Origin: an uncultured Prevotellaceae bacterium
GTDB lineage: Bacteria > Bacteroidota > Bacteroidia > Bacteroidales > Bacteroidaceae
NCBI GenBank assembly: GCA_900321835.1
Contig: ONXQ01000005.1
Location: 1 to 45,952 of the forward strand
Length of the DNA: 45,952 nt
Direction of reading: 5' to 3'
The notes under the pieces are model-generated. The model was not told the origin of the DNA. It ran no database searches and was given only the letters and a program-made list of their open reading frames with translations. Positions 7,339-43,772 of the stretch are shown here, piece after piece. How positions within the stretch are numbered: position 1 is the stretch's first letter; every line of letters starts with the position of its first letter. The position numbers and the translations under genes were made by a program.

Positions 7339-7366
7339 CTGCAGTCACCATTTCGATGCCACTTGC

Positions 7367-18045: not shown

Positions 18046-18055
18046 ATATAGGCCT

Positions 18056-23870: not shown

Positions 23871-23882
23871 GGCGACGGTGGG

Positions 23883-26950: not shown

Positions 26951-26986
26951 CATTACGACCAACAGCACACACCGCGTGTGACACAA

Positions 26987-27073
26987 GGAAAGTTGCCGGA
27001 GTGGTCGATCGGGCCGCACTCGAAATGCGGTGACCGGGTAACTGGTCCGGGGGTTCGAATCCCTCACTTTCCG
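26987..27073 (+). tRNA. tRNA-Ser (anticodon CGA), long variable arm
   Basis: Acceptor GGAAAGT/ACTTTCC, D-arm GCCGGAGTGGTCGATCGGGC, anticodon stem-loop CCGCA-CTCGAAA-TGCGG, variable arm TGACCGGGTAACTGGTCCGG, T-arm GGGGTTCGAATCCC. Confidence 0.9.
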
Positions 27074-27212: not shown

Positions 27213-28447
27213 ATGAAGAAAATCATTGTGGCTGGGCTGGGGCCTGGCAGCCGCGAAGACATGACGGAGGCGGTGGCGAAGGCGCTGGCCGAAGCCGATG
27301 TGGTGGTCGGCTACAAGTTCTATTTCCAGTTTGTCGAACCGTGGCTGAAGCCGGGAGCCGAGTGTGTCGATACGGGAATGAAACGCGAAAGAGACCGTGC
27401 CGAACAGGCTTTCCAACTGGCTGAAGAGGGCCGCACAAGCAGAAGCGCGGCTCGGACGTCGAGGTGGTGGTGTTGCCCGGCATTTCGGCTTTCCAGAAGG
27501 CGGCATCGCTGCTCGGCGCTCCGATTGGTCACGACCTCTGCCTCATTTCGCTGAGCGACCTGATGACGCCGTGGGAAGTCATCGAACGCCGCATCCGTGC
27601 TGCCGCCGGCGGCGATTTCGTCACAGCGGTCTATAATCCGCGCAGCCACGGACGCTACTGGCAACTCAGCCGCCTTCGGGAGGTTTTCCTGCAGGAGGGC
27701 CGCAGCGAGAACACCCCTGTGGGACTGGTCAGGCAGGCTGGACGTGAGGACCAGACGGTGCAGGTGACCACACTCGGCAGCCTCCGTGTCGAAGAAGTTG
27801 ATATGTTCACCGTCCTCATCATCGGCAATTCGCAGTCGTATGTGGAGGACGGACGGATGATCACGCCACGCGGCTACTTTGCCAACGAGACCGAAGACCA
27901 AGACTGCGTCAAGCCTGGTCAGCAAATCATGATGGAGTCGTTCCGCACCATCCGCAGCGAACTGCGTCGCCACGACTACCCCACCGACCATCTGTGGGCA
28001 CTGCTCCATGCCATCCACACGACTGCGGACTTTGAGATGGAGAACATCCTCTACACCGACCCTGATATCGAGGTGAAATGCTACCTGAGCGACCCGCGTG
28101 TGGCCGACATGGCTGTGCAGCAGGGCATCACCCGCACACAGGCCGGCATCCGTCTCGCTGTCGCCGAGCATCCCGATGCGCTCTACGTCTTCGGCAATGC
28201 TCCTACGGCGCTGATGGAACTGTGCGACCTCATGCGCAAGGGTGCGGCCCATCCAGCCGGCATCGTCGCCGCTCCCGTCGGCTTTGTCCACGTGAAAGAA
28301 TCGAAATACATGGTAAAAACCTTTACGGACGTGCCCAAAATCATCGTCGAAGGGCGCAAGGGCGGCAGCAATGTCGCTGCTACACTCTGCAACGCCATTC
28401 TCTGCTTCGACGACGCCGAGGCGCTGCGTCCCGGCCGCGACTTATGA
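27213..28447 (+). pseudogene. cbiH-cbiC: cbiH(cobJ)-cbiC(cobH) fusion: precorrin-3B C17-methyltransferase / precorrin-8X methylmutase, disrupted
   Basis: CbiH N-terminus MKKIIVAGLGPGSREDMT...AFQLAEEGR is in the frame of 27213. The continuation (K)QKRGSDVEVVVLPGISAFQKAASLLGAPIGHDLCLISLSDLMTPW is in the frame of 27464. The conserved SSGD(A/P)G(I/V)YGMA block expected between them is absent (junction about 27434-27437). CbiC motifs HTTADF, GNAPTAL, PVGFV, GRKGGSNVAA are present. Confidence 0.7.
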
Positions 28448-29502
28448 AGTTCTACGTTATTGGCATTACAGACCATCCGCAGCCGTGGTTTCCTCCCGAG
28501 ACATCACCGTGCCGCTTGATGCGGTGTTTGAACAGTATCGCACCCACGACGAAATCATCGTCTTTGCCTCGGGCGACCCACTTTTCTTCGGCTTTGCCGC
28601 CACGTTGCAACGCCGTCTGCCCGAGGCCCGACTGCAGGTGTTTCCTGCGCCCAATTCCTTGCAAATGCTGGCCCATCGCTGCCTGATTCCCTACGACGAC
28701 ATGCACATCGTGTCGCTCACGGGTCGTCCGTGGCACGAACTGGACCGTGCGCTGATGAGCCACACTGCGAAAATCGGAGTTCTGACCGACCGCCAGCACA
28801 CTCCGACGACCATTGCGCAGCGGCTGATGGACTATGGCTACGGGGACTACACGATGTGGGTAGGCGAACACCTCGGCAATCCGCAGCAGGAACGGGTCGT
28901 AAGCCTGTCGCTCAAGGAGGCAGCCAGCGCGACATTCGATTTGCCCAACTGCCTCATTCTCTGGGCAAGAAACGGACTTCCGCCACGCCGCATGGGCATT
29001 CCCGACGCTGAGTTTGAACTGCTCGACGGCCGCGAACGCATGATTACGAAGATGCCCATCCGCCTGCTTTCGCTCCAAGCCCTCGAGCACCGGCAGCGTG
29101 TCCATTGAAGCCGCGCTGCAGTTTCCCCACCTGCACATCCATTCGTTTGAAGTGCGGGAAGAAGGCCGGCGCCTGATGGACGTGAACACACACCGCTTCG
29201 GTGCCGTCGGCATCGAAGTGAGCATCTGCGATTTCCTCAGCAAAGACCTCACCGCCCTGCCTCGTCCCGACGCCGTCTTCATCGGCGGCCATGGCGGTCG
29301 GCTGAAAGAGATGATGACGCGAATCTGCGGCGTACTCACTGTCGGAGGCTGCATCGTCATGAACAGCGTGACGGAGCAGAGCCGGCAGGACTTCGAAGCC
29401 GCCTGCGACGCCCTTCGCCTCAGCCGTTGTCCCTCCCTGCACGTTGCACTCAACGACTACAACCCCATCGACATTCTGAAGACGGTGAAAAACCAGCCCT
29501 GA
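28444..29502 (+). pseudogene. cbiET: cbiE-cbiT (cobL) precorrin-6Y C5,15-methyltransferase (decarboxylating), disrupted twice
   Basis: MKFYVIGITDHPQPWFPPE (frame of 28444) jumps to DITVPLDAVFEQY...VFASGDPLFFGF (frame of 28371) at about 28498-28500. ...MITKMPIRLLSLQALE jumps to (S)TGSVSIEAALQFPHLHI...DAVFIGGHGG (frame of 29098) at about 29085-29089. The expected intervening conserved segments are missing. Confidence 0.7.
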
Positions 29503-29566
29503 CCCACCCCACGCACCTGCTGAAGCCACCACTCGGGTCCGCCATCAGGACTTGCTTTCGACTTTT

Positions 29567-29631
29567 AAGTGCTTAAAAAAAAGTTTTAAGTGCATAAAAA
29601 TACATTTTCAAGTGCTTAGAAATTCATTTCA
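29567..29631. repeat. 3-unit tandem array, 21/22-bp period, AAGTGCTT variant
   Basis: Units at 29567, 29588, 29610: AAGTGCTTaaaaaaaagtttt / AAGTGCATaaaaatacattttc / AAGTGCTTagaaattcatttc. Confidence 0.85.
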
Positions 29632-29647
29632 ACCAAGACATAGAGAC

Positions 29648-31374
29648 ATGAAGACAGCAGTGATACAAGTGACAGAAGCCGGCGCACAGGTGGCGCAGGT
29701 GGTCTGTCAGGAAACAGGCGGAATGCTCGTTCCCCGCTCCGACCTCGGCCGGCACTGGGCCGACGTGGAGGCCGTCGTGTTCATCGGCGCAATGGGCATC
29801 TGTGTCCGCACCATTGCGCCCTTGCTGACGGACAAGCACACCGACCCCGCCGTCGTGTGCATCAGCAGCGACGGCAGCCATGTGATTTCCGTCGTTTCGG
29901 GGCACGTCGGCGGTGCCAACCAACTGGCCGGACAACTGGCCGCTGCCCTGCCCGGGGCCGAGGCCGTGGTCACGACCCAGAGTGACACACAAGGACTCTG
30001 GGCCCTCGACACGCTGGCACAGCGCTATGGCTGGACTGCCGAGGTGGAGGGTGCGACGATGAATGACGCCATCTTCCGCTTTGTCGGCAAAGAGCCTGTG
30101 GCACTGCTGATTGAGACGTGCGATGCAGGCAGCGACTATCTGCAGCGCACCTGTCCGCCACACGTTCGCCGCATCCAGTCGGAGAGCGAAGTGGATACAG
30201 CCAGCGACCGTCTGCTCATTGCCGTCACTCCGCGCCAGATTCACAGCAGCGTTCCCGTGCTCCAGTACGTTCCGAAGACGCTCTGCCTGGGCATCGGGCT
30301 GGCCCATCAGGCAGAACCTGCCGAGGCGATTCTCCGTCAAATCATGCAGTGTGTCGCCGACAGCGGATGGCTGTGGCAGGGTGTGCGCACCGTTGCGACC
30401 ATCGACGTGAAACGCGACGAACCCGTCGTGAAACTGCTGCAAAGTCAAGGCTTCGACGTTCAGTTCTACACGGCAGACCAACTCGCCGCTGTGCCTGTGC
30501 CCACGCCCAGCGATGTCGTCGCCAGCCATGTGGGGACACCGAGTGTGAGTGAGGCCGCAGCCATTCTTGCAGCCGACGGAGGCCCGCTGGTCGTCAGCAA
30601 GAAAAAAGGTGAAAAATTCACCGTTGCCGTGGCCTCTTTGCCGCTGATGCAGGAGGTGGGCAGTGGGCATGGCTTCATCGAAATTGTCGGAGCCGGCCCC
30701 GGCGATCCCGACCTCATCTCCGTGCGCGGCCGTCGAATGCTCGAACGTGCCGACCTCATCCTCTACGCAGGTAGTCTGGTACCACGCGAACTCACGCTGT
30801 GCGCCAAACCAGAGGCCGTGGTGCGTTCCTCCGCCTCGATGTCGCTGGAGGAACAGTGTGCGCTGATGAAGGAATATTACGACCGAGGCTGCTTCATCGT
30901 CCGTCTGCACACGGGCGACCCCTGCATCTTCGGTGCCATCCAGGAGCAGATGGCCTACTTCGACGCCCACCACATGCACTACCACATCACACCATACCCG
31001 AACGCTGTCAGACCATCATCCTGACGCGCGGCGAAGGCCGTACGCCCATGCCCGAACGCGAAAAACTCCATCTGCTGGCCCGCAGCCGCTCGACCATGTG
31101 CATCTTCCTCAGTGCTGCCATCGTCGATGACGTGCAGCAGCAACTCCTCGCCGAATACCCGCCTGAGACGCCTGTCGCCGCCTGCTACCATCTGACGTGG
31201 CCCGACCAGCGCATCTATCGGGGTCAACTCAAAGACCTGGCCAGCATCGTCCACGACCATCATCTCACACTGACCACCATGCTCGTGGTCGGCGATGCGA
31301 TTGACAACCGCCAGGGCCTCTCCGAACTCTATTCGGCACACTTTTCACACTTGTTCAGAAAAGCCAGCGAATGA
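29648..31374 (+). pseudogene. cbiGF: cbiG-cbiF fusion: cobalt-precorrin-5A hydrolase / precorrin-4 C11-methyltransferase, disrupted in the cbiF part
   Basis: CbiG part looks intact (ATG 29648, MKTAVIQVTEAG...). CbiF starts with IEIVGAGPGDPDLISVRG...RLHTGDPCIFGAIQEQ...MHYHITP, then stops. The continuation IPERCQTIILTRGEGRTPMPEREKL...TMLVVGD is in the frame of 30799. The PGVSSF...AAAA segment expected between them is absent (junction about 30992-30997). Confidence 0.7.
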
Positions 31375-33242
31375 TACTCCTCTTTGGTGGCACGACCGAA
31401 GGACGCAAGGCTGCAGAGGTGCTCGAAGAGGCCGGCAGCACGTTCTACTACTCGACCAAGACGGGCGAGCAGGACATCGCCCTGCACCACGGGCTGCGCA
31501 TCGACGGAGCGATGGATGCCGAGGCGATGCAACGTTTTTGTCAGGAACAGGAAATCCGCCTCATCATCGACGCCGCCCATCCCTTTGCGCAGCAGTTGCA
31601 CCAGACCATTGCCGACGTCGCCCAGCGCCTACGCCTTCCCGTCGTCCGCTACGAACGCATCTTTCCGCCGCGCGACGAACACTTCATCTGGATTGACCGC
31701 TACGAAGATTTGCGCACGCTGCGGCCTGCCACCGTTCTTGCCACAACCGGCGTACAGAGCATTTCGCACCTGAAACCCCTCGAGACCGCAGGCTTCCGCT
31801 TCCTGTACCGCATTTTGCCCCGCGAGAGTTCTGTGGCACTGGCAAAAGCGCAGGGTGCTGCCGACGACCAACTTTGCTACTATCACGACGACGAGGACGA
31901 AGTCGCCCTGCTCCGCAGGCTCCGTCCCGACATCCTCCTGGTGAAGGAAAGCGGTGAAAGCGGTGGTTTCAACAAAAAAACGCAAGCCGCTCGTTCACTG
32001 GGTATTACGGTTGTCGCGCTGAAACGCCCTGCAACGCCTTTCACCTTCCACTGCGTCAACGGTCCGCACGGACTTCGCCGCCGTGTCGAGCAGTTGCTAC
32101 CCGACTTTTTTTCCCTGCACAGCGGCCTGACCACAGGCACGTGTGCCACCGCAGCCGCCGTAGCAGCAACGATTCGTCTGACGCGGGGTGAAACACCCTC
32201 CCAGGTGCCTGTCATCCTGCCCGACGGCGAAACCATCTCCGTCGGCGTCGGCTATGGCAACGACTATGCTTTCTGCATCAAGGACGGCGGCGACGACCCC
32301 GACGTGACCGACGGGATTGAAATAAGGGCAAAGGTGGAGGCACAAGCCCCCCTCCACCTCCCCCCCGAAGGGGGAGGGCCTCAAAAACAGCCTGTAGATA
32401 AGGAATCCTCCCCACTCGGGGGGGAGTTAGAGGGGGGCCAGGTCTTTATCACTGGTGGCGAAGGCATCGGAACCATCACCCTCCCCGGCTTTGACTATCC
32501 CCCTGGTTCGCCAGCCATCAACCGTGTACCCCGGGAGATGATAATGACTAACTTAAAGGCACTCCCCTTATGTGGGAGAGATGGAGGGGGGCCGTTCACC
32601 ATCACCCTCTCCGTCCCCAACGGTGCAGAGATAGCCCGCCGCACGTTCAATCCGCGCCTGGGCATCGAGGGCGGCATCAGCATCATTGGGGTGAGCGGCA
32701 TTACGAAACCCTTCAGCGAAGAGGCCTTCGTCGCCTCCATCCGCAAATGTATGGAAGTGGCAAAGGCCAGTATGCCCGCCGAAGGCTGTCTGGTCATCAA
32801 CAGCGGCGCGAAGAGCGAGGCCTACGTCAAGGCGCGTTTTCCCGAACTGCCTGCACCCTGTTTCGTGCAGTATGGCAACTACATCGGTGCCACACTCCGC
32901 ATCGCGGCCGAACTCGCCATTCCCCGTGTCACGCTTTGCGTGATGCTGGGCAAGGCCGTCAAACTCGCTGCCGGCAACCTCGACACCCACAGCCGCCGCA
33001 CGACAATGGACGTCGGCTTTGTCCTCTCCATGCTCACCGAGGCAGGGTGCAGCGACGACGTCATCGCCGCAGCCCACGGTCTCACGCTGGCCCGCGACCT
33101 CTGGACCCTCCTGCCGCCCGACCGTCTCGAACCTTTTGCCCGCGTCGTCATCCGCCATTGTCACCACCATTGCGACCCGGTTTTGCCCGACGGCCAACTC
33201 GACATCCTGCTCATCGACGAGGAAGGACATATATACGCCTGA
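31371..33242 (+). CDS. cbiJD: cbiJ-cbiD fusion: cobalt-precorrin-6A reductase / cobalt-precorrin-5B C1-methyltransferase
   Basis: CbiJ: MILLFGGTTEGR, IIDAAHPFA, LVKESGESGG. CbiD: SGLTTGTCATAAAVAA, KDGGDDPDVT, PAINRVPREMI, FNPRLGIEGGISIIGVSGI. ATGA overlap with the preceding ORF. The frame is open but contains the inserted repeats listed below. Confidence 0.8.
   Translation: MILLFGGTTEGRKAAEVLEEAGSTFYYSTKTGEQDIALHHGLRIDGAMDAEAMQRFCQEQEIRLIIDAAHPFAQQLHQTIADVAQRLRLPVVRYERIFPPRDEHFIWIDRYEDLRTLRPATVLATTGVQSISHLKPLETAGFRFLYRILPRESSVALAKAQGAADDQLCYYHDDEDEVALLRRLRPDILLVKESGESGGFNKKTQAARSLGITVVALKRPATPFTFHCVNGPHGLRRRVEQLLPDFFSLHSGLTTGTCATAAAVAATIRLTRGETPSQVPVILPDGETISVGVGYGNDYAFCIKDGGDDPDVTDGIEIRAKVEAQAPLHLPPEGGGPQKQPVDKESSPLGGELEGGQVFITGGEGIGTITLPGFDYPPGSPAINRVPREMIMTNLKALPLCGRDGGGPFTITLSVPNGAEIARRTFNPRLGIEGGISIIGVSGITKPFSEEAFVASIRKCMEVAKASMPAEGCLVINSGAKSEAYVKARFPELPAPCFVQYGNYIGATLRIAAELAIPRVTLCVMLGKAVKLAAGNLDTHSRRTTMDVGFVLSMLTEAGCSDDVIAAAHGLTLARDLWTLLPPDRLEPFARVVIRHCHHHCDPVLPDGQLDILLIDEEGHIYA
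32347..32439 (+). repeat. in-frame GC-rich hairpin insertion inside cbiD
   Basis: ccCCTCCacCTCCCCCccgaaGGGGGAGGgcc tcaaaaacagcctgtagataaggaat CCTCCCCactcgGGGGGAGttagaggggggcc; encodes APLHLPPEGGGPQKQPVDKESSPLGGELEGG. The AT-rich centre is atypical for this CDS. Confidence 0.6.
32560..32593 (+). repeat. second copy of the CTCCCC...GGGAG...GAGGGGGGCC motif inside cbiD
   Basis: cACTCCCCttatgtGGGAGagatggaggggggcc resembles 32407-32439. It is preceded by rare-codon AT-rich DNA (atgataatgactaacttaaag). Confidence 0.45.
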
Positions 33243-33350
33243 GCGCTCAGAAATTTTCGTCTGAGCGCTCAGACGTTTTCCTCCGAGCGCTCAGACGTTT
33301 TCTTCCGAGCGCTCAGACGTTTTTTTCCAAGCGCTCAGATGTATATAGAA
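33238..33350 (-). repeat. 22-bp-phased GAGCGCTC element, reverse orientation, 5 units
   Basis: Cores at 33241, 33263, 33285, 33307, 33329. The first core overlaps the cbiJD stop codon (ccTGAgcgctc). Head ...tttttttccAAGCGCTCagatgtatatag. Confidence 0.92.
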
Positions 33351-33454: not shown

Positions 33455-33650
33455 AACAACGGTAGTGCCGCGCCGTCACGACGGCGGTGCGAAGCACGCA
33501 AGGGAATGCGGTGTGAATCCGCAGCTGTACCTGCAACTGTAATCCTCTTCTTTTAAGGCTGTCCATCCATGCCACTGACCCTCTGGGACGGGAAGGCGGA
33601 CAGACCGGGGAAAGCCAGGAGACCTGCCGTAAGAAACGAATCTCTTCCAA
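33455..33650 (+). promoter_or_regulatory. cobalamin (B12) riboswitch
   Basis: Conserved core AAGGGAATGCGGTGTGAATCCGCAGCTGTACCTGCAACTGTAA, GCCACTG (33571-33577) and B12 box AGCCAGGAGACCTGCC (33613-33628); about 50 nt upstream of the TBDT start. Confidence 0.9.
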
Positions 33651-33699: not shown

Positions 33700-35835
33700 A
33701 TGAGGATACGAAGAGTCGCCTTAGGGCTGGCATTGCTATGCTGTGCCGCTATGGGTCGCAGTCAGGACGTATTGCTCAGCGACACACTGGAAACGGTGGT
33801 CGTCACGGGCACCGGCACGAAGCACCTGCTGAAGGACGCTCCCGTCGAGACGGAGGTCATCAGCGGACGCACACTGCGTCAGTATGGCGGACAAAGTCTC
33901 GAGGACATCCTGGGAAGCCTGTCGGCCTCGTTCGCCTTCAACGAGGGCGACATGGGCAGCCAGATGCAACTGAACGGCCTCGGCAACTCGTACATTCTCG
34001 TACTCATCGACGGAAAGCGCCTGACGGGCGACGTGGGCGGACAGAACGACCTTTCGCTCATCGACCCCCACAACATCGAGCGCATCGAAATCGTGAAGGG
34101 TGCATCGAGCGCCCTCTACGGCAGCGACGCCATCGCCGGCGTGGTCAACATCATCACCCGCCGCCACGAAGGAGGCATCATGCTGGAGAACTCGACACGC
34201 TACGGCTCGTACAACGACGTCCGCCAGCACAACAGCGTCGGCCTGGCATGGGGAAAGTGGAAGAGCCTCACGGGGTTTCAACTCCAGCATTCGGACGGAT
34301 GGCAGAACACATCGGTCGAAAACACACCGAGCAGCGCCACACCCGTCACCGACTCGCGCAGCATGACGGTCAACCGCCACACAAGTTGGCAACTCTCGGA
34401 GCAACTCACCTTCGCTCCCAGCGAAGACCTTGAGTTCTACCTCGCCGGCACGCTGCACAGAAAGGGCATCTACCGTCCGAAGGGAAAATATCCCAAATAC
34501 GACGTCAAGACCTTTGACCTCAAGTATGAAAATGCCTCTGCAGCCCTGGGCGGACAGTGGCGGACAGAACGCGGCGACCTGCTGACCCTCGACATCGACT
34601 GGGCGCAACACGCCTACTACCACGCCTTCACTTCGACGACGCTGACCGAGGGCTTCGATGCCGACGGACTTCTGATTCTGGACTTCCCCTATTTCGCCGG
34701 ACAACGTCTGCTGCAGAGCAACCAGCAACGCACCACCGCCCAACTGAAGGGCGTGTTCAACTTCCCAAATCACAGACTGTCGGCCGGCCTCGAGGCGCGT
34801 TTCGACCACCTGAAGGCTCCGACCAGCCTTGCCTCACGCACGGCATCCGACAACACCGAGGCGCTGTACGTGCAGGACGAATGGTCACAGTTGCACTGGC
34901 TTTGGCTCACAGGCGGCCTGCGCCTGTGCCGCAACGAAGGCTTTGGCTGGCGGCTGACGCCCAAACTCTCGGCGATGGCCCGACTGGGCAACGTGCGTCT
35001 GCGTGCTACGTGGAGTCAGGGTTTCAAGACCCCTACGCTGAAAGAGATGAACTACCGCTACATCCGCGAGATGACGAACATCGTGATGTACCTGGGCAAC
35101 GAAAATTTGAAACCGCAGACGTCGAACTATTTCTCGCTTGGAGGCGAACTGACGCACCACGGCTTCAACTTCACAGTCACAGCCTACGTGAACCGCCTGG
35201 ACAACATGATTGCACTGGCGACGGTTTCCACCAGCGCTGCACCTGCAGCCTACCGCGAGCAGTACGGCGAAATGCTGAACAAGGTGCGCCGCTACGAAAA
35301 CATGGAGGATGCACGGACGATGGGCGTGGACATCAGCGCAAGTTATACGCGAAAGGAGTGGACAGCCGGTGCCAGTTACAGTTACCTCGACACGAAGGCA
35401 CACGTCTATGACTCGGACGCGGAACGGCTCGAGCGCGTTGTCATTGACGGCATGGCGCGTCACAAGGGCAATGTTTTTGTGACGTGGGAACATCGTTTCT
35501 CTCCCTCCTATGCACTGGGGCTCGGGCTGTACGGCCGTATGTCGAGCCGGCGCTTCTATGCCCTCGACGGCAACGGTCGTCCGTTCCAGATCTGGCGGTT
35601 GACGACGTCGCACAACCTGGGGCACAGCCGCACGATGACCTACCGGCTGGAGGCGGGCATCGACAACATCTTCAACCATGTGGACCGCACGCCTCACGGC
35701 CTGCATCTGGGCACGACCTCGCCGGGCACGACTGTGTTTGCCACGCTGACCGTGCGTTTCAAGACCAACAAGTCACTTAAATTTTCCAATAAACATAAGT
35801 CTAACTCTAAAAATCAAAACGATGAAGAAGATTAA
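33700..35835 (+). CDS. TonB-dependent receptor (BtuB-like, riboswitch-controlled)
   Basis: Signal peptide; TonB-box-like ETVVVTGT; plug motifs LNGLGNSYILVLIDGKR, IERIEIVKGASSALYGSDAIAGVVNIIT; barrel ends ...TVFATLTVRF followed by a 24-aa extension. Confidence 0.85.
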   Translation: MRIRRVALGLALLCCAAMGRSQDVLLSDTLETVVVTGTGTKHLLKDAPVETEVISGRTLRQYGGQSLEDILGSLSASFAFNEGDMGSQMQLNGLGNSYILVLIDGKRLTGDVGGQNDLSLIDPHNIERIEIVKGASSALYGSDAIAGVVNIITRRHEGGIMLENSTRYGSYNDVRQHNSVGLAWGKWKSLTGFQLQHSDGWQNTSVENTPSSATPVTDSRSMTVNRHTSWQLSEQLTFAPSEDLEFYLAGTLHRKGIYRPKGKYPKYDVKTFDLKYENASAALGGQWRTERGDLLTLDIDWAQHAYYHAFTSTTLTEGFDADGLLILDFPYFAGQRLLQSNQQRTTAQLKGVFNFPNHRLSAGLEARFDHLKAPTSLASRTASDNTEALYVQDEWSQLHWLWLTGGLRLCRNEGFGWRLTPKLSAMARLGNVRLRATWSQGFKTPTLKEMNYRYIREMTNIVMYLGNENLKPQTSNYFSLGGELTHHGFNFTVTAYVNRLDNMIALATVSTSAAPAAYREQYGEMLNKVRRYENMEDARTMGVDISASYTRKEWTAGASYSYLDTKAHVYDSDAERLERVVIDGMARHKGNVFVTWEHRFSPSYALGLGLYGRMSSRRFYALDGNGRPFQIWRLTTSHNLGHSRTMTYRLEAGIDNIFNHVDRTPHGLHLGTTSPGTTVFATLTVRFKTNKSLKFSNKHKSNSKNQNDEED

Positions 35836-36925
35836 GTTGCTCGTCATGGCACTGGCTGCCATGATGTTGTCGGCAGGATTCACGTCCTGCAGCGACAACG
35901 ACGACGACACCATGTCGAACATGGAACGTTACCAACAGGAAGTGGAGAACACCGTACGTGCCGAGAAGGCGCACAAGAAAGCGCTGCTGCTCGTGGCCTT
36001 CGGCTCGACCTGGCAGCAGGCCTACGATGCTTTCGACCTGACCCGTCAGGAGTATCAGAAGGCATTCCCCGACTACGACGTTTTCCTCTCCTTCTCGTCG
36101 GCCATCTGCATCAACCGTGCAGCCGCAGGCGAGAACACGGCCAAGCGTTCTTTCTACGAACCCATGTACTGGCTCGAGGCTTTCGGCCGTGTGCAGTATG
36201 AGGAAATCATCGTGCAGTCGATGCAGGTGATTCCCGGCGAAGAGTTCAGCCGCGTGGTGAACGCCATGAAGGACTTCGGCAACAACAAACTCGGCGACCT
36301 GGACGATGCCTACATGAAGACCGTGACCCTCAAACTGGGTATGCCGCTCATGTACACCGAGGACAATGCCAAAGAACTGGCTTCGGCCCTCGACGCCAAC
36401 TTCCACAAGTATGCCGAGATGGGTGCCATGCTGTTCATGGGCCACGGCAACCCCGACGACTACGACACTTACAAGGCCAACGTGCGCTACACACAACTTG
36501 AGACTGCCCTGCAGGCCATCCATCCCAACTATTACGTAGGTACGGTCGATATGGCCGACAACTTCAAGGTGCAGGTGAACAACCGCATGGAGGCCAACGG
36601 CTTTGCTTCGAACGGCAAGGTGTTCTGCGCTCCGCTGATGTCGATTGCCGGCGACCACGCCCACAACGACATGGCCGGCGACGACGACGAATGGGATGAC
36701 GCGATGGCCACTCAGACCGAAGGCGAAGCCGAGGACGTAAGTTGGAAGAAATACTTCGGCCACAAGGGCTACACCATCGAGGAGACACCTTACTACACCG
36801 ACAACGGCGAAGACGCCCTCGTGAAGGGTCTGCTGGAGTACAAGAACATCCGCGACCTGTACATAAAGCACACCCAGGCGGCCGAAGTGGTTGACTTCTA
36901 CCACTCGATGTACCCCGAGGAGTAA
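35822..36925 (+). CDS. surface lipoprotein with CbiK-type (class II chelatase) fold; IhtB-like
   Basis: Lipobox LSAGFTSC followed by the acidic run SDNDDD. CbiK-like blocks LLLVAFGSTW, MLFMGHGNP, PLMSIAGDHAHNDMAG. Confidence 0.7.
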   Translation: MKKIKLLVMALAAMMLSAGFTSCSDNDDDTMSNMERYQQEVENTVRAEKAHKKALLLVAFGSTWQQAYDAFDLTRQEYQKAFPDYDVFLSFSSAICINRAAAGENTAKRSFYEPMYWLEAFGRVQYEEIIVQSMQVIPGEEFSRVVNAMKDFGNNKLGDLDDAYMKTVTLKLGMPLMYTEDNAKELASALDANFHKYAEMGAMLFMGHGNPDDYDTYKANVRYTQLETALQAIHPNYYVGTVDMADNFKVQVNNRMEANGFASNGKVFCAPLMSIAGDHAHNDMAGDDDEWDDAMATQTEGEAEDVSWKKYFGHKGYTIEETPYYTDNGEDALVKGLLEYKNIRDLYIKHTQAAEVVDFYHSMYPEE

Positions 36926-36944
36926 GCGCCCCGGCGCTACTCGC

Positions 36945-37045
36945 GCGCGTATATATACGTCTGAGCGCTCGGACGAAACGCTCTGAGCGCTCAGACGAAA
37001 ACTTCCGAGCGCTCAGACGTTTTTTTCCAAGCGCTCGGAAACCGA
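36945..37045 (-). repeat. 22-bp-phased GAGCGCTC element, reverse orientation, 4 units
   Basis: Cores at 36963, 36985, 37007, 37029; left end is the palindrome CGTATATATACG (36948-36959); head ...tttttttccAAGCGCTCgg. Confidence 0.92.
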
Positions 37046-37052
37046 AATAGAC

Positions 37053-39143
37053 ATGACAAGAAAAACATGTGATATGTTATTTAAGAAAGTAGGTTTTTTG
37101 ATGGCGGCACTCCTCACGGGGAGTGCTGCCTTTGCGCAAATTCACAAGATGGAACGTGCCGACACGTCGGCCGTGGCACACACCTACGACCTCAACCCCG
37201 TCGTCGTCACAGGCTCGGGCCACCATCAGCGCATGAAGTACACAGCCACGCCCGTCCGTATGCTTTCCTCGCAGGAAATCCGAGAACAGGGCATCACCAC
37301 CTTCGACGCTGCCCTCACACGCATGATGCCCCAGGTGTCGATGGCACCCAACTCGATGGGCACCTTCCTGCGGCTCAACGGACTGGGCAACAAGTACATC
37401 CTCATTCTGGTGAACGGACAGAAACTGTCGGGCGACATCTCGAACAATGTTGACCTCAACCGCATCAACATGGCACGCGTGAAGCGCATCGAGGTGCTCG
37501 ACGGAGCAGCCTCGTCGCTCTACGGCAGCGATGCCATCGCCGGCGTCATCAACATCATCACCGACCAGCCCACACAGCAACTGGTGAGCGTGATGAGCGA
37601 CACCCGAGTGTCGGGCAAGGGCCAACTCACCGAGTCGGTCAACCTCGACATCCACACCCACGGCTTCGGTTCCTACACCTCCTTTGTCCACGACCGGGCC
37701 GACAGTTACCAGACCACGGACCTCGAATACAAGAAAGGCTCCGACACCGAGACCCAGCCGACCATCGCACCCTTCTTCACCGGCTACCGCTCCAACGTGC
37801 TCAGCCAGAAGTTCACCTACAGTCCCAACCGCCACCTGGCGATGAACGCCTACGTGGACTATTCGAACAAAATCACCGACCGTCCCGCGACACGTCCCGA
37901 CATCACCGGCGGCACCGACTACGAGATGCGCTACCGCGGCCTGCGCTACGGCTTTGGCGGCATCTACAAGTTCACACAGCGCAACTCGCTGCAGGCCGAC
38001 CTGACCATCGACCGCTTCCGCTACGGCAAGGAATACGACGTCGAGACGAAGAACAACGCCGTGGGCGACTTTGTCGAGTCGAAACGCCAGCGCACCATCG
38101 AGGGACAACTGAAGGGCGTGCTCGGCCTCACGGCAAACTCGACCACCGTGGTCGGTGCCGACTGGCGCCGCGACAAACTCGTCGCCACGAGCGGCAACAT
38201 CGACCAGACCGCCTACACCCTCGCCGCCTATGCCCAGCACGAAGTGAAGATGTGGGACCTGCTCACAGCCACCGTCGGCCTGCGCTACGACTATCACGAG
38301 AACTTCCACAACCGCCTCACGCCAAAAGCCACACTGATGCTCTCGCCAGGCCCCTTTAACTTCCGTGCCACATGGTCCACAGGCTTCCGTGCCCCAGGCC
38401 TCGACGAACTCTACTACCACTACTACTCCGTCAACCGCGGAAAGCCGCAAATCACCTTCGGCAACAGCAGTCTCGACCCCGAGCGCAGCAACTACTTCGC
38501 CCTCAACGCCGAATACCGCACCCAGACCCTCGCCGTCAGCGTGACCGGCTATGTGAACCGCATCAGCGACATGATCATACGCCAGGACATCCCCGTCGGC
38601 TCGTCCGAACTGACCATGCTGCAGGCCGAATTTCCGGAGATGACGTCGGCCGAGGCCGCCAAACTCGAACGCTACAGCCGCTATGTCAACAGCGACCGCG
38701 GCGACGTCAAAGGTCTGCAAGTGAACGTGTCGGCCAACCTTTTCGATGGTTTCAACCTCTCGGCCAACTACGCCTACACCTATGCCCGGACTGAGAACGC
38801 CGGCGAGTGGAGCGTGCTGGAGCGCAGCATCCGCAACGTGGCAACGCTGGCGGCAAACTACCACCATGCCTGGGGTCACTATGCACTGAACGTCAACCTG
38901 AACGGACGCTTGCAGTCGCGCACCTACTATACCAGTTACGAGAATGCACCGGGCTACGGCATCTGGAACCTGCACACCACGCACACGTTCGATCACCTGC
39001 ATTGGGCCATCATCGAGCCCAGCATCGGTGTTGACAATCTGTTCAACCGGGTCGATCGACGCATCGACTCCAGCAACCGCAAGTACGCCCTCTACAGCCC
39101 CGGACGTATGATCGTCGTCGGTCTGCGCGTACGTTTCCAGTAA
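37053..39143 (+). CDS. TonB-dependent receptor (paralog of 33700..35835)
   Basis: LNPVVVTGS, LNGLGNKYILILVNGQK, IKRIEVLDGAASSLYGSDAIAGVINIIT, C-terminal VVGLRVRFQ. The start may instead be ATG 37074. Confidence 0.85.
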   Translation: MTRKTCDMLFKKVGFLMAALLTGSAAFAQIHKMERADTSAVAHTYDLNPVVVTGSGHHQRMKYTATPVRMLSSQEIREQGITTFDAALTRMMPQVSMAPNSMGTFLRLNGLGNKYILILVNGQKLSGDISNNVDLNRINMARVKRIEVLDGAASSLYGSDAIAGVINIITDQPTQQLVSVMSDTRVSGKGQLTESVNLDIHTHGFGSYTSFVHDRADSYQTTDLEYKKGSDTETQPTIAPFFTGYRSNVLSQKFTYSPNRHLAMNAYVDYSNKITDRPATRPDITGGTDYEMRYRGLRYGFGGIYKFTQRNSLQADLTIDRFRYGKEYDVETKNNAVGDFVESKRQRTIEGQLKGVLGLTANSTTVVGADWRRDKLVATSGNIDQTAYTLAAYAQHEVKMWDLLTATVGLRYDYHENFHNRLTPKATLMLSPGPFNFRATWSTGFRAPGLDELYYHYYSVNRGKPQITFGNSSLDPERSNYFALNAEYRTQTLAVSVTGYVNRISDMIIRQDIPVGSSELTMLQAEFPEMTSAEAAKLERYSRYVNSDRGDVKGLQVNVSANLFDGFNLSANYAYTYARTENAGEWSVLERSIRNVATLAANYHHAWGHYALNVNLNGRLQSRTYYTSYENAPGYGIWNLHTTHTFDHLHWAIIEPSIGVDNLFNRVDRRIDSSNRKYALYSPGRMIVVGLRVRFQ

Positions 39144-39159
39144 ATCATCTTATGAACAA

Positions 39160-39210
39160 GGAATGAAGAATGACGGATGCCCGCTTGTCGTTCTTCATTC
39201 CATTTTTTTT
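39160..39210 (+). terminator. GAATGAAGAAT-type hairpin plus T-run
   Basis: GGAATGAAGAATGACG-gatgcccgct-TGTCGTTCTTCATTCC then attttttttc; ends 8 nt before the next start codon. Confidence 0.6.
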
Positions 39211-39217
39211 CAAACCC

Positions 39218-39724
39218 ATGAAGCAACTCTACACCAGGACAGGCGACAGCGGCCTGACCAGCCTTCGCGAGGGCGTCAGGGTCGAGAAGGACGACCTGCG
39301 CATCGAAGTGAACGGACAGGTGGACCACCTCAACGCCCTGCTCGGTCTGGTACGCAGCGACGAGCGCACAGCAGCCCTGCTGCCGACCGACGACGCTGCA
39401 CTCATCAGGCGGGTGCAGACAGAACTGATGTCGGTCATGAGCCACATCGCCACGCCCAGCGGCAGTGTCAATCCCCGTCCGCTCCATGTCGGCGAACTGA
39501 CTGCTGAGATGGAGCAAGCCATCGACCGCCACACCGACGGGCGCACCACAGGCTTCACCATTCCCGGCGACACACCGGCGGCGGCGTTGCTCCATGTGGC
39601 CCGCACCCAGACACGCACCGTCGAGCGCCGGCTCTGGACCCTGCATCGCGAGCATCCGCTGTCGCCCAGCGTGCTCACCTTCTTCAACCGCCTCAGCGAC
39701 TACCTTTTTTCACTCACCCTCTGA
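39218..39724 (+). CDS. pduO: PduO-type ATP:cob(I)alamin adenosyltransferase
   Basis: Start moved to MKQLYTRTGDSGLTSL; VNGQVDHLNALLG, ARTQTRTVERR, FFNRLSDYLF. Confidence 0.85.
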   Translation: MKQLYTRTGDSGLTSLREGVRVEKDDLRIEVNGQVDHLNALLGLVRSDERTAALLPTDDAALIRRVQTELMSVMSHIATPSGSVNPRPLHVGELTAEMEQAIDRHTDGRTTGFTIPGDTPAAALLHVARTQTRTVERRLWTLHREHPLSPSVLTFFNRLSDYLFSLTL

Positions 39725-39738
39725 CTCTTTTTCCAACC

Positions 39739-40755
39739 ATGCTCTACGGACACGGCGACGACACCTTCCGCTTCCCCCACCTGCGTGCCAACTTCAGTTC
39801 GAACATCTGCACAGAGGCCGACCTTGCCCCCCTCAAGGCGCATCTGGCCACACGGCTCTCCGCCATCGAGAACTATCCGGAGCCGGCAGCCGACTCGCTC
39901 GCTGCCTGCATCGCCCGGCTGCACGGCATCCAGCCCGACGAGGTGCTGGTGACCAACGGCGCCACCGATGCCATCTACCTCATTGCACAGGCTTTTGCCA
40001 CGGATGGTACCTATTTCTCGACCGACGAACCCACTTTCAGCGAATATGCCGACGCCTGCCTTTTGTTCGGATTGAAACCTCAGACAGACGCGGACTCTTC
40101 TGCAGCCGTTCGCTGGCTGTGCAACCCGAACAACCCCGACGGCCGCATCTACACGTCCGAGCAAGTGCGACGGGAGGCACAGCGCAGCACGTGGCTCGTC
40201 GTCGATCAGTCGTACGAAGACTACACCGCAGCCCCTCTGCTCACCGCTCGCGAGGCGCTCGGTGTGCCCAACCTGCTGCTGCTCCATTCGCTCACCAAGA
40301 GTTACGCCGTACCGGGGCTGCGCATCGGCTATGTCACTGCGCCGGCTCCGCTCATCGCCCGTCTCAAGTCCGTCAGCCGTCCGTGGGCCGTCAATGCCCT
40401 GGCGGTCGAGGCCGGGAAATGGCTGCTCAGCCACGATGTACGTGCCGTGCCCGACCTCGATGCCCTGTTGGCAGAGACCCAGCGGCTGGCCAACGCACTT
40501 TCGGAGGTGCCTCACCTCCACGTCAGCCCCACCGCCACGACCTTCATGCTCGTCTGCTGCGACACGTTCACGGCGGCCCAACTGAAGGAGCGGCTGGCCT
40601 CGGAACACGGTCTGCTCATCCGCGATGCCTCCAATTTCCCCACGCTCACTCCCCATCACTTCCGTGTGGCAACCCAGCGGCCCGACCAGAACGATGCACT
40701 TGTCGCTGCCCTGCGCACCCTTCTCTCCCCGTCTGCAGACGAACGAAAGTTCTGA
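39739..40755 (+). CDS. cobD: threonine-phosphate decarboxylase (class I/II aminotransferase fold)
   Basis: MLYGHGDD, NFSSN, YPEP, CNPNNPDG, HSLTKSYAVPGLRIGY (PLP lysine motif). Confidence 0.85.
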   Translation: MLYGHGDDTFRFPHLRANFSSNICTEADLAPLKAHLATRLSAIENYPEPAADSLAACIARLHGIQPDEVLVTNGATDAIYLIAQAFATDGTYFSTDEPTFSEYADACLLFGLKPQTDADSSAAVRWLCNPNNPDGRIYTSEQVRREAQRSTWLVVDQSYEDYTAAPLLTAREALGVPNLLLLHSLTKSYAVPGLRIGYVTAPAPLIARLKSVSRPWAVNALAVEAGKWLLSHDVRAVPDLDALLAETQRLANALSEVPHLHVSPTATTFMLVCCDTFTAAQLKERLASEHGLLIRDASNFPTLTPHHFRVATQRPDQNDALVAALRTLLSPSADERKF

Positions 40756-40820
40756 GTGCTTGAAAAAAAAGTTTTAAGTGCTTGAAAATTTACTTTTACG
40801 TGCTTGAAAGTTTGTTTTTA
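40754..40820. repeat. 3-unit tandem array, 22-bp period, (G/A)AGTGCTT variant
   Basis: Units at 40754, 40776, 40798: GAGTGCTTgaaaaaaaagtttt / AAGTGCTTgaaaatttactttt / ACGTGCTTgaaagtttgttttt; the first unit overlaps the cobD stop. Confidence 0.88.
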
Positions 40821-40833
40821 CCTACTTGTTTCG

Positions 40834-40841
40834 TAACTTTG
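40834..40841 (+). promoter_or_regulatory. -7 promoter box TAACTTTG
   Basis: 19 nt upstream of ATG 40861. Confidence 0.5.
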
Positions 40842-40860
40842 CACAAAGATTAGAAAACAA

Positions 40861-41400
40861 ATGGAGGTAGTCCTTATTCGCCACACCAGCGTCGCAGTCC
40901 CGAAAGGCACGTGCTACGGACAGACCGACGTGCCCGTTGCCGACACGTTTGAACAGGAGGCTGCGGCCACCCGTGCCGCCCTCGGCCGCTACGGCCAGTT
41001 CGACGCCGTCTTCTCGTCGCCCCTCACCCGTGCCCGCCTGCTGGCAGCAGCCTGCGGCTACGAACAGCCCGTCATCGACGACCGTCTGAAGGAGATGTCG
41101 ATGGGCGATTGGGAGATGAAGCAGTTTGACCTCATCGACGACCCGCACCTGAAGGAGTGGTACGACAACTACATCGAAGAGCGCACCAGCGGCGGAGAGA
41201 GTTTCCAGGACGTCTATCGGCGCGTGGCAGCCTTTCTTGACGAAGTGCGCCAACGGCCCGACTACACCCGCGTGGCCGTCTTTGCCCACGGCGGCGTGCT
41301 GATGTGTGCAGGCCTGTATGCCGGGCTCTACACCGCCGACGATATGTTCTACCACCTCGTCCCCTACGGCGGCATTCTGGAAATAAAAATTGAGAATTAG
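40861..41400 (+). CDS. cobC: alpha-ribazole phosphatase (histidine phosphatase family)
   Basis: MEVVLIRHTSV...CYGQTDVP, SSPLTRA, FAHGGV. Confidence 0.8.
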   Translation: MEVVLIRHTSVAVPKGTCYGQTDVPVADTFEQEAAATRAALGRYGQFDAVFSSPLTRARLLAAACGYEQPVIDDRLKEMSMGDWEMKQFDLIDDPHLKEWYDNYIEERTSGGESFQDVYRRVAAFLDEVRQRPDYTRVAVFAHGGVLMCAGLYAGLYTADDMFYHLVPYGGILEIKIEN

Positions 41401-41408
41401 TCAACACG

Positions 41409-41981
41409 ATGAGCAGAGTCATCTTGATCACAGGCGGACAGCGCTCGGGCAAGAGCGAATGGGCAGAGCGGATGGCGCTCTCGCTCAGCGACAGCCCCGT
41501 CTATGTGGCCACGGCCCATGTGTGGGACGAAGAGTTCCGCCAGCGGGTGCGCCGTCATCAGGAGCGTCGTGGACCTCAGTGGACAAACATCGAGGAAGAG
41601 ATGCGGCTGGCCGACCACGACCTGACGGGACGTGTGGCGGTGATTGACTGTGTGACACTTTGGCTCACCAATTTCTTCTTCCACCTTGACAGCAACACCG
41701 AACAGGCCCTCGCCGCCGCCAAGCGCGAATTCGACCGCCTCGCCGAGCAGGATGCGACCCTCATCTTTGTAACCAACGAAATCGGCTGTGGCGGCGTAAG
41801 CGACAATGCCCTTCAGCGCCGATTCACCGACCTGCAAGGCTGGATGAACCAGCACATCGCACAGCGAGCCGACGAGGTGTGGTGGATGGTGTCGGGCCTG
41901 CCCGTACAGATTAAGCATGAGAACATTCAACATACAACAGCCCGACAGCAGGATGCTGGCGGACATTCGCAAGAAGATTGA
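41409..41981 (+). CDS. cobU: bifunctional adenosylcobinamide kinase / adenosylcobinamide-phosphate guanylyltransferase
   Basis: ILITGGQRSGKSEWAE P-loop, HQERRGPQWTNIEE, IDCVTLWLTN, VTNEIGCGGV; the 3' end overlaps cobT by 65 nt. Confidence 0.85.
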   Translation: MSRVILITGGQRSGKSEWAERMALSLSDSPVYVATAHVWDEEFRQRVRRHQERRGPQWTNIEEEMRLADHDLTGRVAVIDCVTLWLTNFFFHLDSNTEQALAAAKREFDRLAEQDATLIFVTNEIGCGGVSDNALQRRFTDLQGWMNQHIAQRADEVWWMVSGLPVQIKHENIQHTTARQQDAGGHSQED

Positions 41982-42954
41982 CAACCTGAACAAGCCGAAA
42001 GGCTCGCTCGGACGCCTCGAAACGCTCGCCGAGCAAATCTGCCTGGTGCAGCAAACCCTGTCGCCGCGCCTCACCCACCCCAGCCACCTGCTACTCGGAG
42101 CCGACCACGGCATCGAGCGCGAGGCAGTGAGCGTGAGTCCGCGCGAAGTCACGTGGCAGCAGATGCTTAACTTCACCCACGGCGGCGGCGGAGTCAACAT
42201 GTTCTGCCGTCAGCACGGCTTCAAGTTGCGCATCGTAGATGTCGGCGTCGATTACGACTTCACGGGCGTTGATGGGATTCTGGACAGAAAAGTGGCGCGT
42301 GGAACACGCAATTTTCTCCACGAGGCTGCCATGACACAGGAAGAGTACGACCGCACCATCGACATCGGTGCAGCGCTCTGCGACGACTGCTTCGCCGAAG
42401 GCTGCAACGTGCTGAGCATCGGCGAGATGGGCATAGCCAACACCTCGCCGTCCAGCATCTGGATGAGCCTCTTTTGCCACATCCCGCTCGACGAGTGCAT
42501 AGGTGCCGGAGCAGGACTCGACACACCGGGCATCCGTCACAAGCGCGAGGTGCTCAGACAGGCTGTGGACAACTATCAGGGACAGGGCACTGCCGCCGAC
42601 CTCATCCGCTACTTCGGCGGATTCGAGATGGTAGCCGCCATCGGAGCCATGCTTCGTGCAGCCAAGCATCGTATGCTGGTGCTGGTCGATGGATTCATCA
42701 TGTCGGCCTGTGCCCTCGCCGCCATCCAGTTGGAACCGGAGGTGCGCGACTACATGATCTTTGCCCACTGCGGCGACGAGAGCGGCCATCGGCGTATGCT
42801 CGATGCCATGCAGGCCCAGCCCCTGCTCAGTCTTGGCCTGCGGCTGGGAGAAGGAACGGGAGCGCTCTGTGCCTACCCCATCGTCGATTCGGCTGTGCGG
42901 ATGATCAACGAAATGAACAACTTCGACAATGCGCGTATTACGAAATATTTTTGA
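41917..42954 (+). CDS. cobT: nicotinate-nucleotide--dimethylbenzimidazole phosphoribosyltransferase
   Basis: IDNLNKPKGSLGRLE, GADHGI, GEMGIANTS, LRLGEGTGA. Confidence 0.9.
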   Translation: MRTFNIQQPDSRMLADIRKKIDNLNKPKGSLGRLETLAEQICLVQQTLSPRLTHPSHLLLGADHGIEREAVSVSPREVTWQQMLNFTHGGGGVNMFCRQHGFKLRIVDVGVDYDFTGVDGILDRKVARGTRNFLHEAAMTQEEYDRTIDIGAALCDDCFAEGCNVLSIGEMGIANTSPSSIWMSLFCHIPLDECIGAGAGLDTPGIRHKREVLRQAVDNYQGQGTAADLIRYFGGFEMVAAIGAMLRAAKHRMLVLVDGFIMSACALAAIQLEPEVRDYMIFAHCGDESGHRRMLDAMQAQPLLSLGLRLGEGTGALCAYPIVDSAVRMINEMNNFDNARITKYF

Positions 42955-43711: not shown

Positions 43712-43772
43712 ACCACACCCGTTTTTCCTGAATCCCATAGTCCCACACAGAGGGAAGTTTTGCCACTTGTCC

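What the first reader, a model, noticed from the sequence alone, without database searches (positions are those of the whole stretch)
27213..33242. Corrin-ring half of the anaerobic B12 pathway is broken in at least four places while the salvage and nucleotide-loop half looks intact
cbiH-cbiC, cbiE-cbiT and cbiG-cbiF each switch reading frame at a point where a conserved block of the family is missing. In contrast, pduO-type ATR, cobD, cobC, cobU, cobT, cobS, cbiB and cobQ read through cleanly, and a B12 riboswitch drives two TonB-dependent receptors. The sequence flanking each lesion is still highly family-like. The lesions are therefore either very recent, with the organism moving from corrin producer to corrinoid salvager/remodeller, or assembly artefacts. 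No cbiL, cbiA or cytoplasmic cbiK/cbiX is present in this window; they may lie elsewhere in the genome.
Basis: partly seen in the sequence, partly recalled or inferred. Interest (0 to 1): 0.7.

Follow-up and report, generated by a model that had tools for sequence, protein, structure and literature searches.

The report
Collapsed assembly gaps mimicking B12 pseudogenes
The "broken" vitamin-B12 ring-synthesis genes are real in this deposited contig, but they are five clean-cut missing pieces that other assemblies of the same rumen bacterium contain, so they are most likely an assembly artefact and not gene decay.

Summary
The fused genes cbiH-cbiC, cbiE-cbiT and cbiG-cbiF are interrupted, and cbiJ-cbiD, the cobalamin riboswitch, two TonB-dependent receptors and pduO/cobD/cobC/cobU/cobT/cobS/cbiB/cobQ are intact. 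There are five lesions, not four.

An ENA scaffold of the same strain differs from the window by 2 mismatches over about 32.7 kb, plus blunt deletions of 64, 111, 97, 38 and 52 bp. These lie after window positions 27436, 28066, 28499, 29086 and 30990. That scaffold encodes full-length CbiHC, CbiET and CbiGF. A second assembly is base-identical and intact across deletions 2-5.

Evidence against biological decay:
- No substitution accompanies the deletions, and junction microhomology is 0-1 nt.
- None of the five truncated products occurs on any other contig, whereas flanking proteins occur on 3-4.
- Two independent MEGAHIT contigs end exactly at 27436.
- Another assembly has a run of N over deletion 2.
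- Similar blunt deletions occur in other N-free contigs of the RUG (rumen MAG) and "scaffold_N" type, and in none of 56 loci from other sources.

Most likely (about 0.8) these are scaffold joins whose gaps were closed up. Recent pseudogenisation is not supported. Only read mapping can finally exclude a real multi-deletion clone (about 0.1).

The parts
27213..28447 (+). cbiH-cbiC fused gene, interrupted twice. The intact form is 469 aa.
   Evidence: Pfam TP_methylase and CbiC hits split over two frames. The intact 469-aa version is in L081.
27436..27437 (.). Junction 1: 64 bp missing (frameshift). It removes CbiH residues about 76-96 (VVVISSGDAGIYGMAPLVWEM).
   Evidence: blunt, 0 nt microhomology. 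MEGAHIT contigs k127_363416 and k141_745492 both end exactly at 27436.
28066..28067 (.). Junction 2: 111 bp missing, in frame (37 codons of the CbiC domain, AVAILYNK...ALQRLG).
   Evidence: A 72-N scaffold gap in L097 covers L081 6354-6441 and overlaps the missing segment (L081 6399-6509).
28444..29502 (+). cbiE-cbiT fused gene, interrupted twice. The intact form is 397 aa.
   Evidence: tblastn chain in three frames. The intact P0016 gives full CbiE and CbiT NCBIfam coverage.
28499..28500 (.). Junction 3: 97 bp missing (frameshift). It removes CbiE residues about 20-51.
   Evidence: Intact and 100% identical in L081 and L087.
29086..29087 (.). Junction 4: 38 bp missing (frameshift). It removes the start of the CbiT SAM-binding motif (DLPSRTVLWDVGFC).
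29648..31374 (+). cbiG-cbiF fused gene, interrupted once. The intact form is 592 aa.
   Evidence: Pfam CbiG_N/mid/C plus a split TP_methylase. The intact P0031 is shown.
30990..30991 (.). Junction 5: 52 bp missing (frameshift). It removes the CbiF PGISSFLAAAAELRSQF motif.
   Evidence: 1 nt of ambiguity.
31371..33242 (+). cbiJ-cbiD fused gene, intact (623 aa).
   Evidence: Pfam CbiJ and CbiD, NCBIfam. The identical protein is on 3 contigs.
33465..33645 (+). Cobalamin riboswitch.
   Evidence: Rfam RF00174, 81 bits, full length.
33751..39143 (+). TonB-dependent receptor (33751-35835), CbiK-like surface lipoprotein (35822-36925), second TonB-dependent receptor (37101-39143).
   Evidence: Gene calls on the identical L081 contig, NCBIfam, lipoprotein signal peptide.
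39170..43711 (+). Intact salvage and nucleotide-loop genes: PduO-type ATR, CobD, CobC, CobU, CobT, CobS.
   Evidence: NCBIfam equivalog hits. No indels against L081.
43867..45952 (-). cbiB (ORF 43867-45024, start uncertain) and cobQ (44747-45952, runs off the window end).
   Evidence: Pfam and NCBIfam.

Best explanation
The five interruptions are defects of this sequence record, not of the organism. The contig was most likely built from six short-read contigs: ...-27436, 27437-28066, 28067-28499, 28500-29086, 29087-30990 and 30991-.... A scaffolder ordered them across small unresolved gaps of 38-111 bp. The record then abuts them directly, with no N and none of the missing bases.

The cbi region is where closely related co-occurring strains differ in a mosaic way. 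Short-read assembly graphs therefore fragment there, and not in the flanks.

The bacterium itself, an uncultured rumen Prevotellaceae, carries intact cbiHC, cbiET, cbiGF and cbiJD next to a riboswitch-controlled corrinoid uptake and salvage cluster.

Shown: the deletions, their bluntness, near-identity to an intact assembly, coincidence with contig ends or a gap elsewhere, and uniqueness to this record. Inferred: the exact software step that dropped the gaps, and the attribution of the window to the IDBA-UD/RUG pipeline.
For: 1. L081 (ENA ERZ28614472, scaffold_1374) matches the window with 2 mismatches over window 10571-43242, apart from five blunt deletions. It encodes 469-, 397- and 592-aa proteins with full HMM coverage.

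2. L087 (ERZ27279866, k141_1029, a contig without N) is 100% identical to L081 across deletions 2-5.

3. There are zero substitutions in the 6-kb cbi region alongside five deletions. Microhomology is 0, 0, 0, 0 and 1 nt.

4. The window's own truncated products (P0117, P0027, P0119, P0040, P0120) each occur on exactly one contig, the 45,952-bp one. The exact flanking proteins occur on 3-4 contigs, including Logan contigs of run ERR2027898.

5. Two MEGAHIT contigs with different k (k127_363416 and k141_745492) end exactly at window 27436. By my rough estimate an exact match of a contig end with a deletion edge has a chance of about 4e-3, even if the two are counted as one event.

6. L097, a scaffold from another study at about 98% identity, has 72 N where 88 bp belong, overlapping deletion 2.

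7. All internal pieces (630, 433, 587 and 1904 bp) exceed the 300-bp minimum contig length used in the IDBA-UD pipeline of PMC5830445 and PMC6785717.

8. The same kind of lesion occurs in other RUG and 'scaffold_N' contigs:
- L008: 50 nt in cbiGF.
- L063: 43 nt in cbiJD, plus 61 nt in a FecCD/BtuC-type permease, which is not a biosynthesis gene.
- L088 and L089: about 37-46 nt in cbiH.
No such lesion occurs in 56 loci from other sources. Counting the window as RUG-type gives 3 of 25 against 0 of 56, Fisher p about 0.03.

9. None of these RUG or 'scaffold_N' loci contains a single N. Scaffolds from the UBA (L009, L060) and SPIRE (L097) sets do contain N-runs, of 68, 107 and 72 nt, the same size range as the deletions.
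Against: - No reads could be examined, so junction-spanning reads cannot be excluded.
- A contig end exactly at 27436 is also what a real intact/deleted polymorphism would produce in a de Bruijn graph.
- Edge coincidence was found only for deletion 1, and overlap with a gap only for deletion 2. Nothing comparable was found for deletions 3-5.
- The deleted segments are not enriched for k-mers shared with other species (p about 0.23), so a simple 'conserved repeat node' cause is not supported.
- Assigning the window to the IDBA-UD/RUG pipeline is an inference from its near-identity to re-assemblies of PRJEB21624 data, not a documented fact.
- I found no statement that N-runs were stripped in that pipeline.
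Confidence: 0.8

Rival explanations
1. The deletions are real. A clonal sub-population of this strain in the sampled rumen carries all five deletions and has just lost corrin-ring synthesis while keeping uptake and salvage. This would be 'Black Queen' loss caught at its start.
For: - All lesions fall in ring-synthesis genes, and the salvage genes are untouched.
- Two MEGAHIT contigs end exactly where an intact/deleted bubble would start.
- Other rumen Prevotellaceae records also show broken cbi genes.
Against: - Five deletions of 38 bp or more with no point substitution in 6 kb, and only 2 in about 33 kb, is very unlikely for spontaneous mutation. From general knowledge of bacterial mutation spectra, deletions this large are far rarer than base substitutions.
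- One lesion would be enough to inactivate the pathway.
- There is no junction microhomology.
- The contig L087 runs through sites 2-5 without a branch.
- The truncated products are unique to this record.
- A comparable lesion in L063 hits a transporter gene.
Confidence: 0.12
2. This is ordinary evolutionary pseudogene decay: the lineage lost selection on the ring pathway some time ago and is accumulating deletions.
For: Disrupted ORFs with conserved blocks missing.
Against: An otherwise base-identical intact haplotype exists. There are no substitutions, no small indels and no divergence in the broken genes. The nearest species representative (L001) and 79 other relatives have these blocks.
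Confidence: 0.01
3. This is another kind of record artefact. Either internal spans were cut out after assembly (for example trimming after a screening report, or a polishing or local re-assembly error), or the assembler wrongly simplified a bubble. In this reading the cause is not N-stripped scaffold gaps.
For: Blunt excisions in an otherwise identical sequence. No paper text documents how gaps were handled.
Against: The missing spans are bona fide cbi coding sequence, not adaptor-like. The coincidence with contig ends and with an N-gap in other assemblies points to assembly-graph breakpoints and not to arbitrary trimming.
Confidence: 0.07

Closest known systems
Scaffold gaps or mis-joins in short-read metagenome-assembled genomes (MAGs)
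   Same: Blunt loss of tens of bases at assembly-graph breakpoints. Clustering where strains differ. Another assembly shows an explicit N-gap at one of the sites. Contig ends coincide with one edge.
   Different: No N marks the gaps in this record, so the joins read as genuine deletions and frameshifts. The step that removed the gaps is not documented.
Anaerobic (early cobalt insertion) cobalamin pathway cluster of Bacteroidales with fused genes (cbiHC, cbiET, cbiGF, cbiJD)
   Same: All eight domains are present in the usual fused arrangement. About 80 related Prevotellaceae/Bacteroidales loci share the layout.
   Different: In the window three of the four fusions are interrupted. cbiL, cbiA and a cytoplasmic cbiK/cbiX are not in this 46-kb contig.
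Corrinoid salvagers that lack ring synthesis, such as Bacteroides thetaiotaomicron (from general knowledge)
   Same: Riboswitch-controlled TonB-dependent receptors plus cobD/C/U/T/S, cbiB and cobQ, as expected for uptake and remodelling.
   Different: Those organisms lack the ring genes altogether. Here the same strain has them intact in other assemblies, so a salvager lifestyle is not indicated.

Membership tests
Recent pseudogenes (genuine gene inactivation) | ORF disrupted relative to intact orthologues | tested here: met
Recent pseudogenes (genuine gene inactivation) | Lesion reproducible in independent sequence of the same lineage | tested here: not met
   Two other assemblies are intact. 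The truncated products are on one contig only. No junction-bearing homologue of the 113-aa product was found.
Recent pseudogenes (genuine gene inactivation) | Signs of relaxed selection (extra substitutions, small indels) in the broken genes | tested here: not met
   0 substitutions and 0 small indels against L081 in 27213-33242.
Assembly or scaffolding artefact | Otherwise identical sequence with blunt, microhomology-free loss | tested here: met
   microhomology of 0, 0, 0, 0 and 1 nt; 2 mismatches in about 32.7 kb.
Assembly or scaffolding artefact | Lesion edges coincide with contig ends or gaps in independent assemblies | tested here: inconclusive
   Met for junction 1, where two contigs end at 27436. 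Junction 2 is overlapped by an N-gap. No coincidence was found for junctions 3-5.
Assembly or scaffolding artefact | Same lesion type in other records of the same pipeline, including in unrelated genes | tested here: met
   L008, L063 (including a permease gene), L088 and L089 carry such lesions. There are none in 56 loci from other sources. The window's own provenance is inferred.
Assembly or scaffolding artefact | No reads span the junctions, and reads cover the intact sequence | not testable with these tools
   No access to raw reads.
Anaerobic cbi corrin-ring gene cluster | CbiH, CbiC, CbiE, CbiT, CbiG, CbiF, CbiJ and CbiD domains present | tested here: met
   Coverage is full length only in the intact assemblies.
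Anaerobic cbi corrin-ring gene cluster | CbiL, CbiA and a cytoplasmic cobaltochelatase (CbiK/CbiX) present | tested here: not met
   Not among the genes of this contig. The CbiK homologue is a lipoprotein. These genes may lie elsewhere in the genome.
Cobalamin-riboswitch-controlled corrinoid uptake locus | RF00174 aptamer upstream of a TonB-dependent receptor | tested here: met

The most novel reading that the evidence does not exclude
A clonal sub-population of a rumen Prevotellaceae strain acquired five separate blunt deletions confined to three fused corrin-ring genes, essentially simultaneously and with no other mutation, and coexists with its intact parent. This would be very recent, possibly mechanistically unusual (clustered, microhomology-free) loss of B12 ring synthesis in a corrinoid-rich habitat.
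Probability: 0.1. Interest if true: 0.6.

Novelty: not a real feature. Interest (0 to 1): 0.12.

Why it matters
If the lesions were real, they would show a B12 producer turning into a salvager in the rumen.

As it stands, the value is a caution. A public MAG contig contains unmarked joins that read as frameshifted pseudogenes. Similar joins appear in other contigs that seem to come from the same source. Pathway-completeness calls, such as who makes and who scavenges cobalamin in the rumen, and pseudogene counts that rely on such records can therefore be wrong.

Tried and rejected
- K-mer test: I asked whether the deleted segments are unusually rich in k-mers shared with about 79 other Prevotellaceae loci, as a 'conserved repeat node' model predicts. 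They are not (permutation p about 0.23-0.28).
- Strain-difference test: I asked whether the deletions sit at edges of differences between L081 and L001. There is no consistent pattern.
- All-against-all nucleotide gap scan for private deletions: too noisy among diverged loci. I replaced it with tblastn frame chaining.
- Exact look-ups of the 113-aa and 458-aa products: nothing returned. The tool hides the window's own contig, so only the cluster listings were informative.
- Homology search with the 113-aa frameshifted product: no other sequence carries junction 1, but it turned up two other broken cbiH genes.
- JGI metagenome scans for junction 1 and for the intact sequence: both empty. The strain is not in that collection, so the result is uninformative.
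- Literature: the methods of PMC5830445 and PMC6785717 give the IDBA-UD settings but say nothing about how N-gaps were handled. A search on 'scaffold.fa' gave nothing useful.
- dN/dS analysis: dropped, because there are no substitutions to analyse.
Full report
**What is in the window.** The window is a complete 45,952-bp public contig. The cluster listings show its gene products on a contig of exactly that length, held by NCBI and ENA. It comes from an uncultured rumen Prevotellaceae. The closest species representative is RUG483 (L001), which is about 99% identical in the flanks.

On the plus strand, 27213-33242 carries the four fused corrin-ring genes typical of this group: cbiH-cbiC, cbiE-cbiT, cbiG-cbiF and cbiJ-cbiD. 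A Bacteroidales-1 RNA and a tRNA precede them. Downstream lie:
- a cobalamin riboswitch at 33465-33645;
- a TonB-dependent receptor, a CbiK-like lipoprotein and a second receptor;
- intact pduO-type ATR, cobD, cobC, cobU, cobT and cobS;
- cbiB and a partial cobQ on the minus strand.

**Checking the observation.** Pfam finds TP_methylase positions 1-67 of CbiH in one frame and 112-211 in another. For CbiF it finds positions 4-115 and then 141-212 in another frame. CbiC is matched in two pieces.

The CbiT piece alone hits nothing in Pfam, but neither does the CbiT half of the intact protein. NCBIfam detects full CbiE and CbiT in the intact protein.

**The decisive comparison.** An exact-protein look-up with the intact CbiJD returned ENA scaffold STEW18-1_SAMEA104153970_METAG-scaffold_1374 (L081). 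There the upstream genes are called as 469, 397 and 592 aa.

Megablast shows the window and this scaffold to be 100% identical over 21.5 kb apart from one mismatch at 24471. Over 32.7 kb, using L083, there are two mismatches. The only other differences are five deletions in the window:

| Junction (window) | Missing | Effect | Removed |
|---|---|---|---|
| 27436\|27437 | 64 bp | frameshift | CbiH GDAGIYG block |
| 28066\|28067 | 111 bp | in frame, 37 codons | part of the CbiC domain |
| 28499\|28500 | 97 bp | frameshift | CbiE N-terminal block |
| 29086\|29087 | 38 bp | frameshift | start of the CbiT SAM motif |
| 30990\|30991 | 52 bp | frameshift | CbiF PGISS block |

The junctions are blunt, with boundary ambiguity of 0, 0, 0, 0 and 1 nt. 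The intact proteins give full-length HMM coverage. The same five segments are also present in L001 and L002.

**Independent support for the intact form.** Contig k141_1029 of another assembly (ERZ27279866, L087) is 100% identical to L081 over 3,645 bp and runs uninterrupted through deletions 2-5.

The window's own truncated products (325, 207, 134, 458 and 108 aa) each occur on exactly one contig among about 15 billion proteins from NCBI, ENA, JGI and Logan. The exact flanking proteins of this strain occur on 3-4 contigs, including Logan contigs of run ERR2027898. A homology search with the frameshifted 113-aa product found no other sequence carrying junction 1.

**Why this is not decay.** Five deletions of 38-111 bp sit in 3.6 kb, with no substitution in the 6-kb cbi region and only two in about 33 kb. 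General knowledge of bacterial mutation spectra says large deletions are much rarer than point changes, so this ratio cannot be reconciled with spontaneous decay. One lesion would already have inactivated the pathway. There are also no small indels.

**Why an assembly cause is likely.**

1. Two MEGAHIT contigs built with different k both end exactly at window 27436, the left edge of deletion 1. They are ERZ932404 k127_363416 from run ERR2027898 of PRJEB21624, and ERZ27279866 k141_745492.

2. An 862-bp scaffold from another study (L097, about 98% identical) has a run of 72 N where 88 bp belong, at L081 6354-6441. This overlaps deletion 2, which spans L081 6399-6509. It shows directly that scaffolders leave a gap at this spot.

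3. The cbi region is an assembly-fragmentation hotspot. ERZ27279866 breaks it into at least four contigs, while the flanks assemble into 29-kb and 32-kb contigs. The region is also mosaic against RUG483, at 77-95% identity in patches, compared with 99% in the flanks.

4. The internal pieces of the window (630, 433, 587 and 1904 bp) all exceed the 300-bp minimum contig length of the IDBA-UD runs described for the rumen MAG sets.

5. Frame-chaining of 16 reference proteins over about 670 kb of homologous coding sequence in some 85 loci found large frame-breaking deletions in only three sequences. These are the window, L008 (RUG11335, 50 nt in cbiGF) and L063 (RUG12503, 43 nt in cbiJD). L063 also has a 61-nt loss in a FecCD/BtuC-type permease gene, so the lesions are not specific to ring synthesis.

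6. Two further broken cbiH genes turned up on contigs named scaffold_265 and scaffold_5426.

7. None of these RUG or 'scaffold_N' loci contains a single N. Scaffolds from other pipelines in the same set do carry N-runs, of 68, 107 and 72 nt, which is the size range of the window's deletions.

**What remains open.** A contig ending exactly at 27436 is also what a genuine intact/deleted polymorphism would produce. I found no edge coincidence for deletions 3-5. The k-mer-sharing test for a 'conserved repeat node' cause was negative. The JGI scans were uninformative, because neither form is in that collection.

The step that removed the gaps, and the window's origin in the IDBA-UD/RUG pipeline, are inferences. 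Read mapping is the decisive test, and I could not run it.

**Verdict.**
- The interpretation as recent pseudogenisation is not supported.
- The most likely explanation (about 0.8) is that unresolved scaffold gaps were closed up in the deposited record.
- A real clonal multi-deletion haplotype keeps about 0.1, and other post-assembly artefacts keep about 0.07.
- The organism should be treated as carrying intact cbiHC, cbiET, cbiGF and cbiJD. Whether it makes the corrin ring de novo depends on cbiL, cbiA and a cytoplasmic chelatase, none of which is in this contig.

Noticed in passing
window 3390-3485, 7355-7455, 18035-18140, 23775-23875, 33225-33345, 36945-37030, 43762-43862: A 22-bp unit, roughly CGTCTGAGCGCTCAGACGTTTT (a perfect 16-bp palindrome GTCTGAGCGCTCAGAC plus an A/T run), occurs in 3-5 tandem copies at seven or more intergenic sites. 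It is also present in L001. It looks like a dispersed stack of terminator-like or REP-like hairpins.
   Followed up: partly
window 28500-33242 compared with L001 7036-11866: Against the species representative RUG483, the flanks are about 99% identical. cbiET, cbiGF and cbiJD contain patches of only 77-90% identity. This indicates either recombination with diverged alleles or a chimeric consensus in one of the MAGs.
   Followed up: partly
window 35822-36925: The CbiK homologue between the two TonB-dependent receptors starts MKKIKLLVMALAAMMLSAGFTSC|SDNDDD. This is a lipoprotein signal followed by an acidic stretch, so it is probably a surface or periplasmic tetrapyrrole-binding protein and not the cytoplasmic cobaltochelatase.
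   Followed up: partly
window 26739-27073: A Bacteroidales-1 (6S-like) RNA at 26739-26922 and a tRNA at 26987-27073 lie directly upstream of cbiH. No riboswitch precedes the ring-synthesis genes. The only cobalamin riboswitch controls the uptake genes.
   Followed up: no
L063 1821 and 2841; L008 7109; L088 and L089 about 8290-8305: Other public rumen MAG contigs (RUG12503, RUG11335, scaffold_265, scaffold_5426) carry single blunt 37-61-nt losses inside conserved genes relative to all their relatives. This suggests a recurring record defect.
   Followed up: partly
window 1-98: The first 98 bases of the window do not align with the otherwise near-identical contig k141_745492 (L090), which continues further left. 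This may be a branch point or a contig-end artefact.
   Followed up: no
P0060 and P0075 (549-bp ENA contigs): Two partial CbiH products end in ...DRKSVV. This is the translation of the Illumina adapter GATCGGAAGAGCGTCGTG, so adapter sequence has been left at the contig ends in a public assembly.
   Followed up: no
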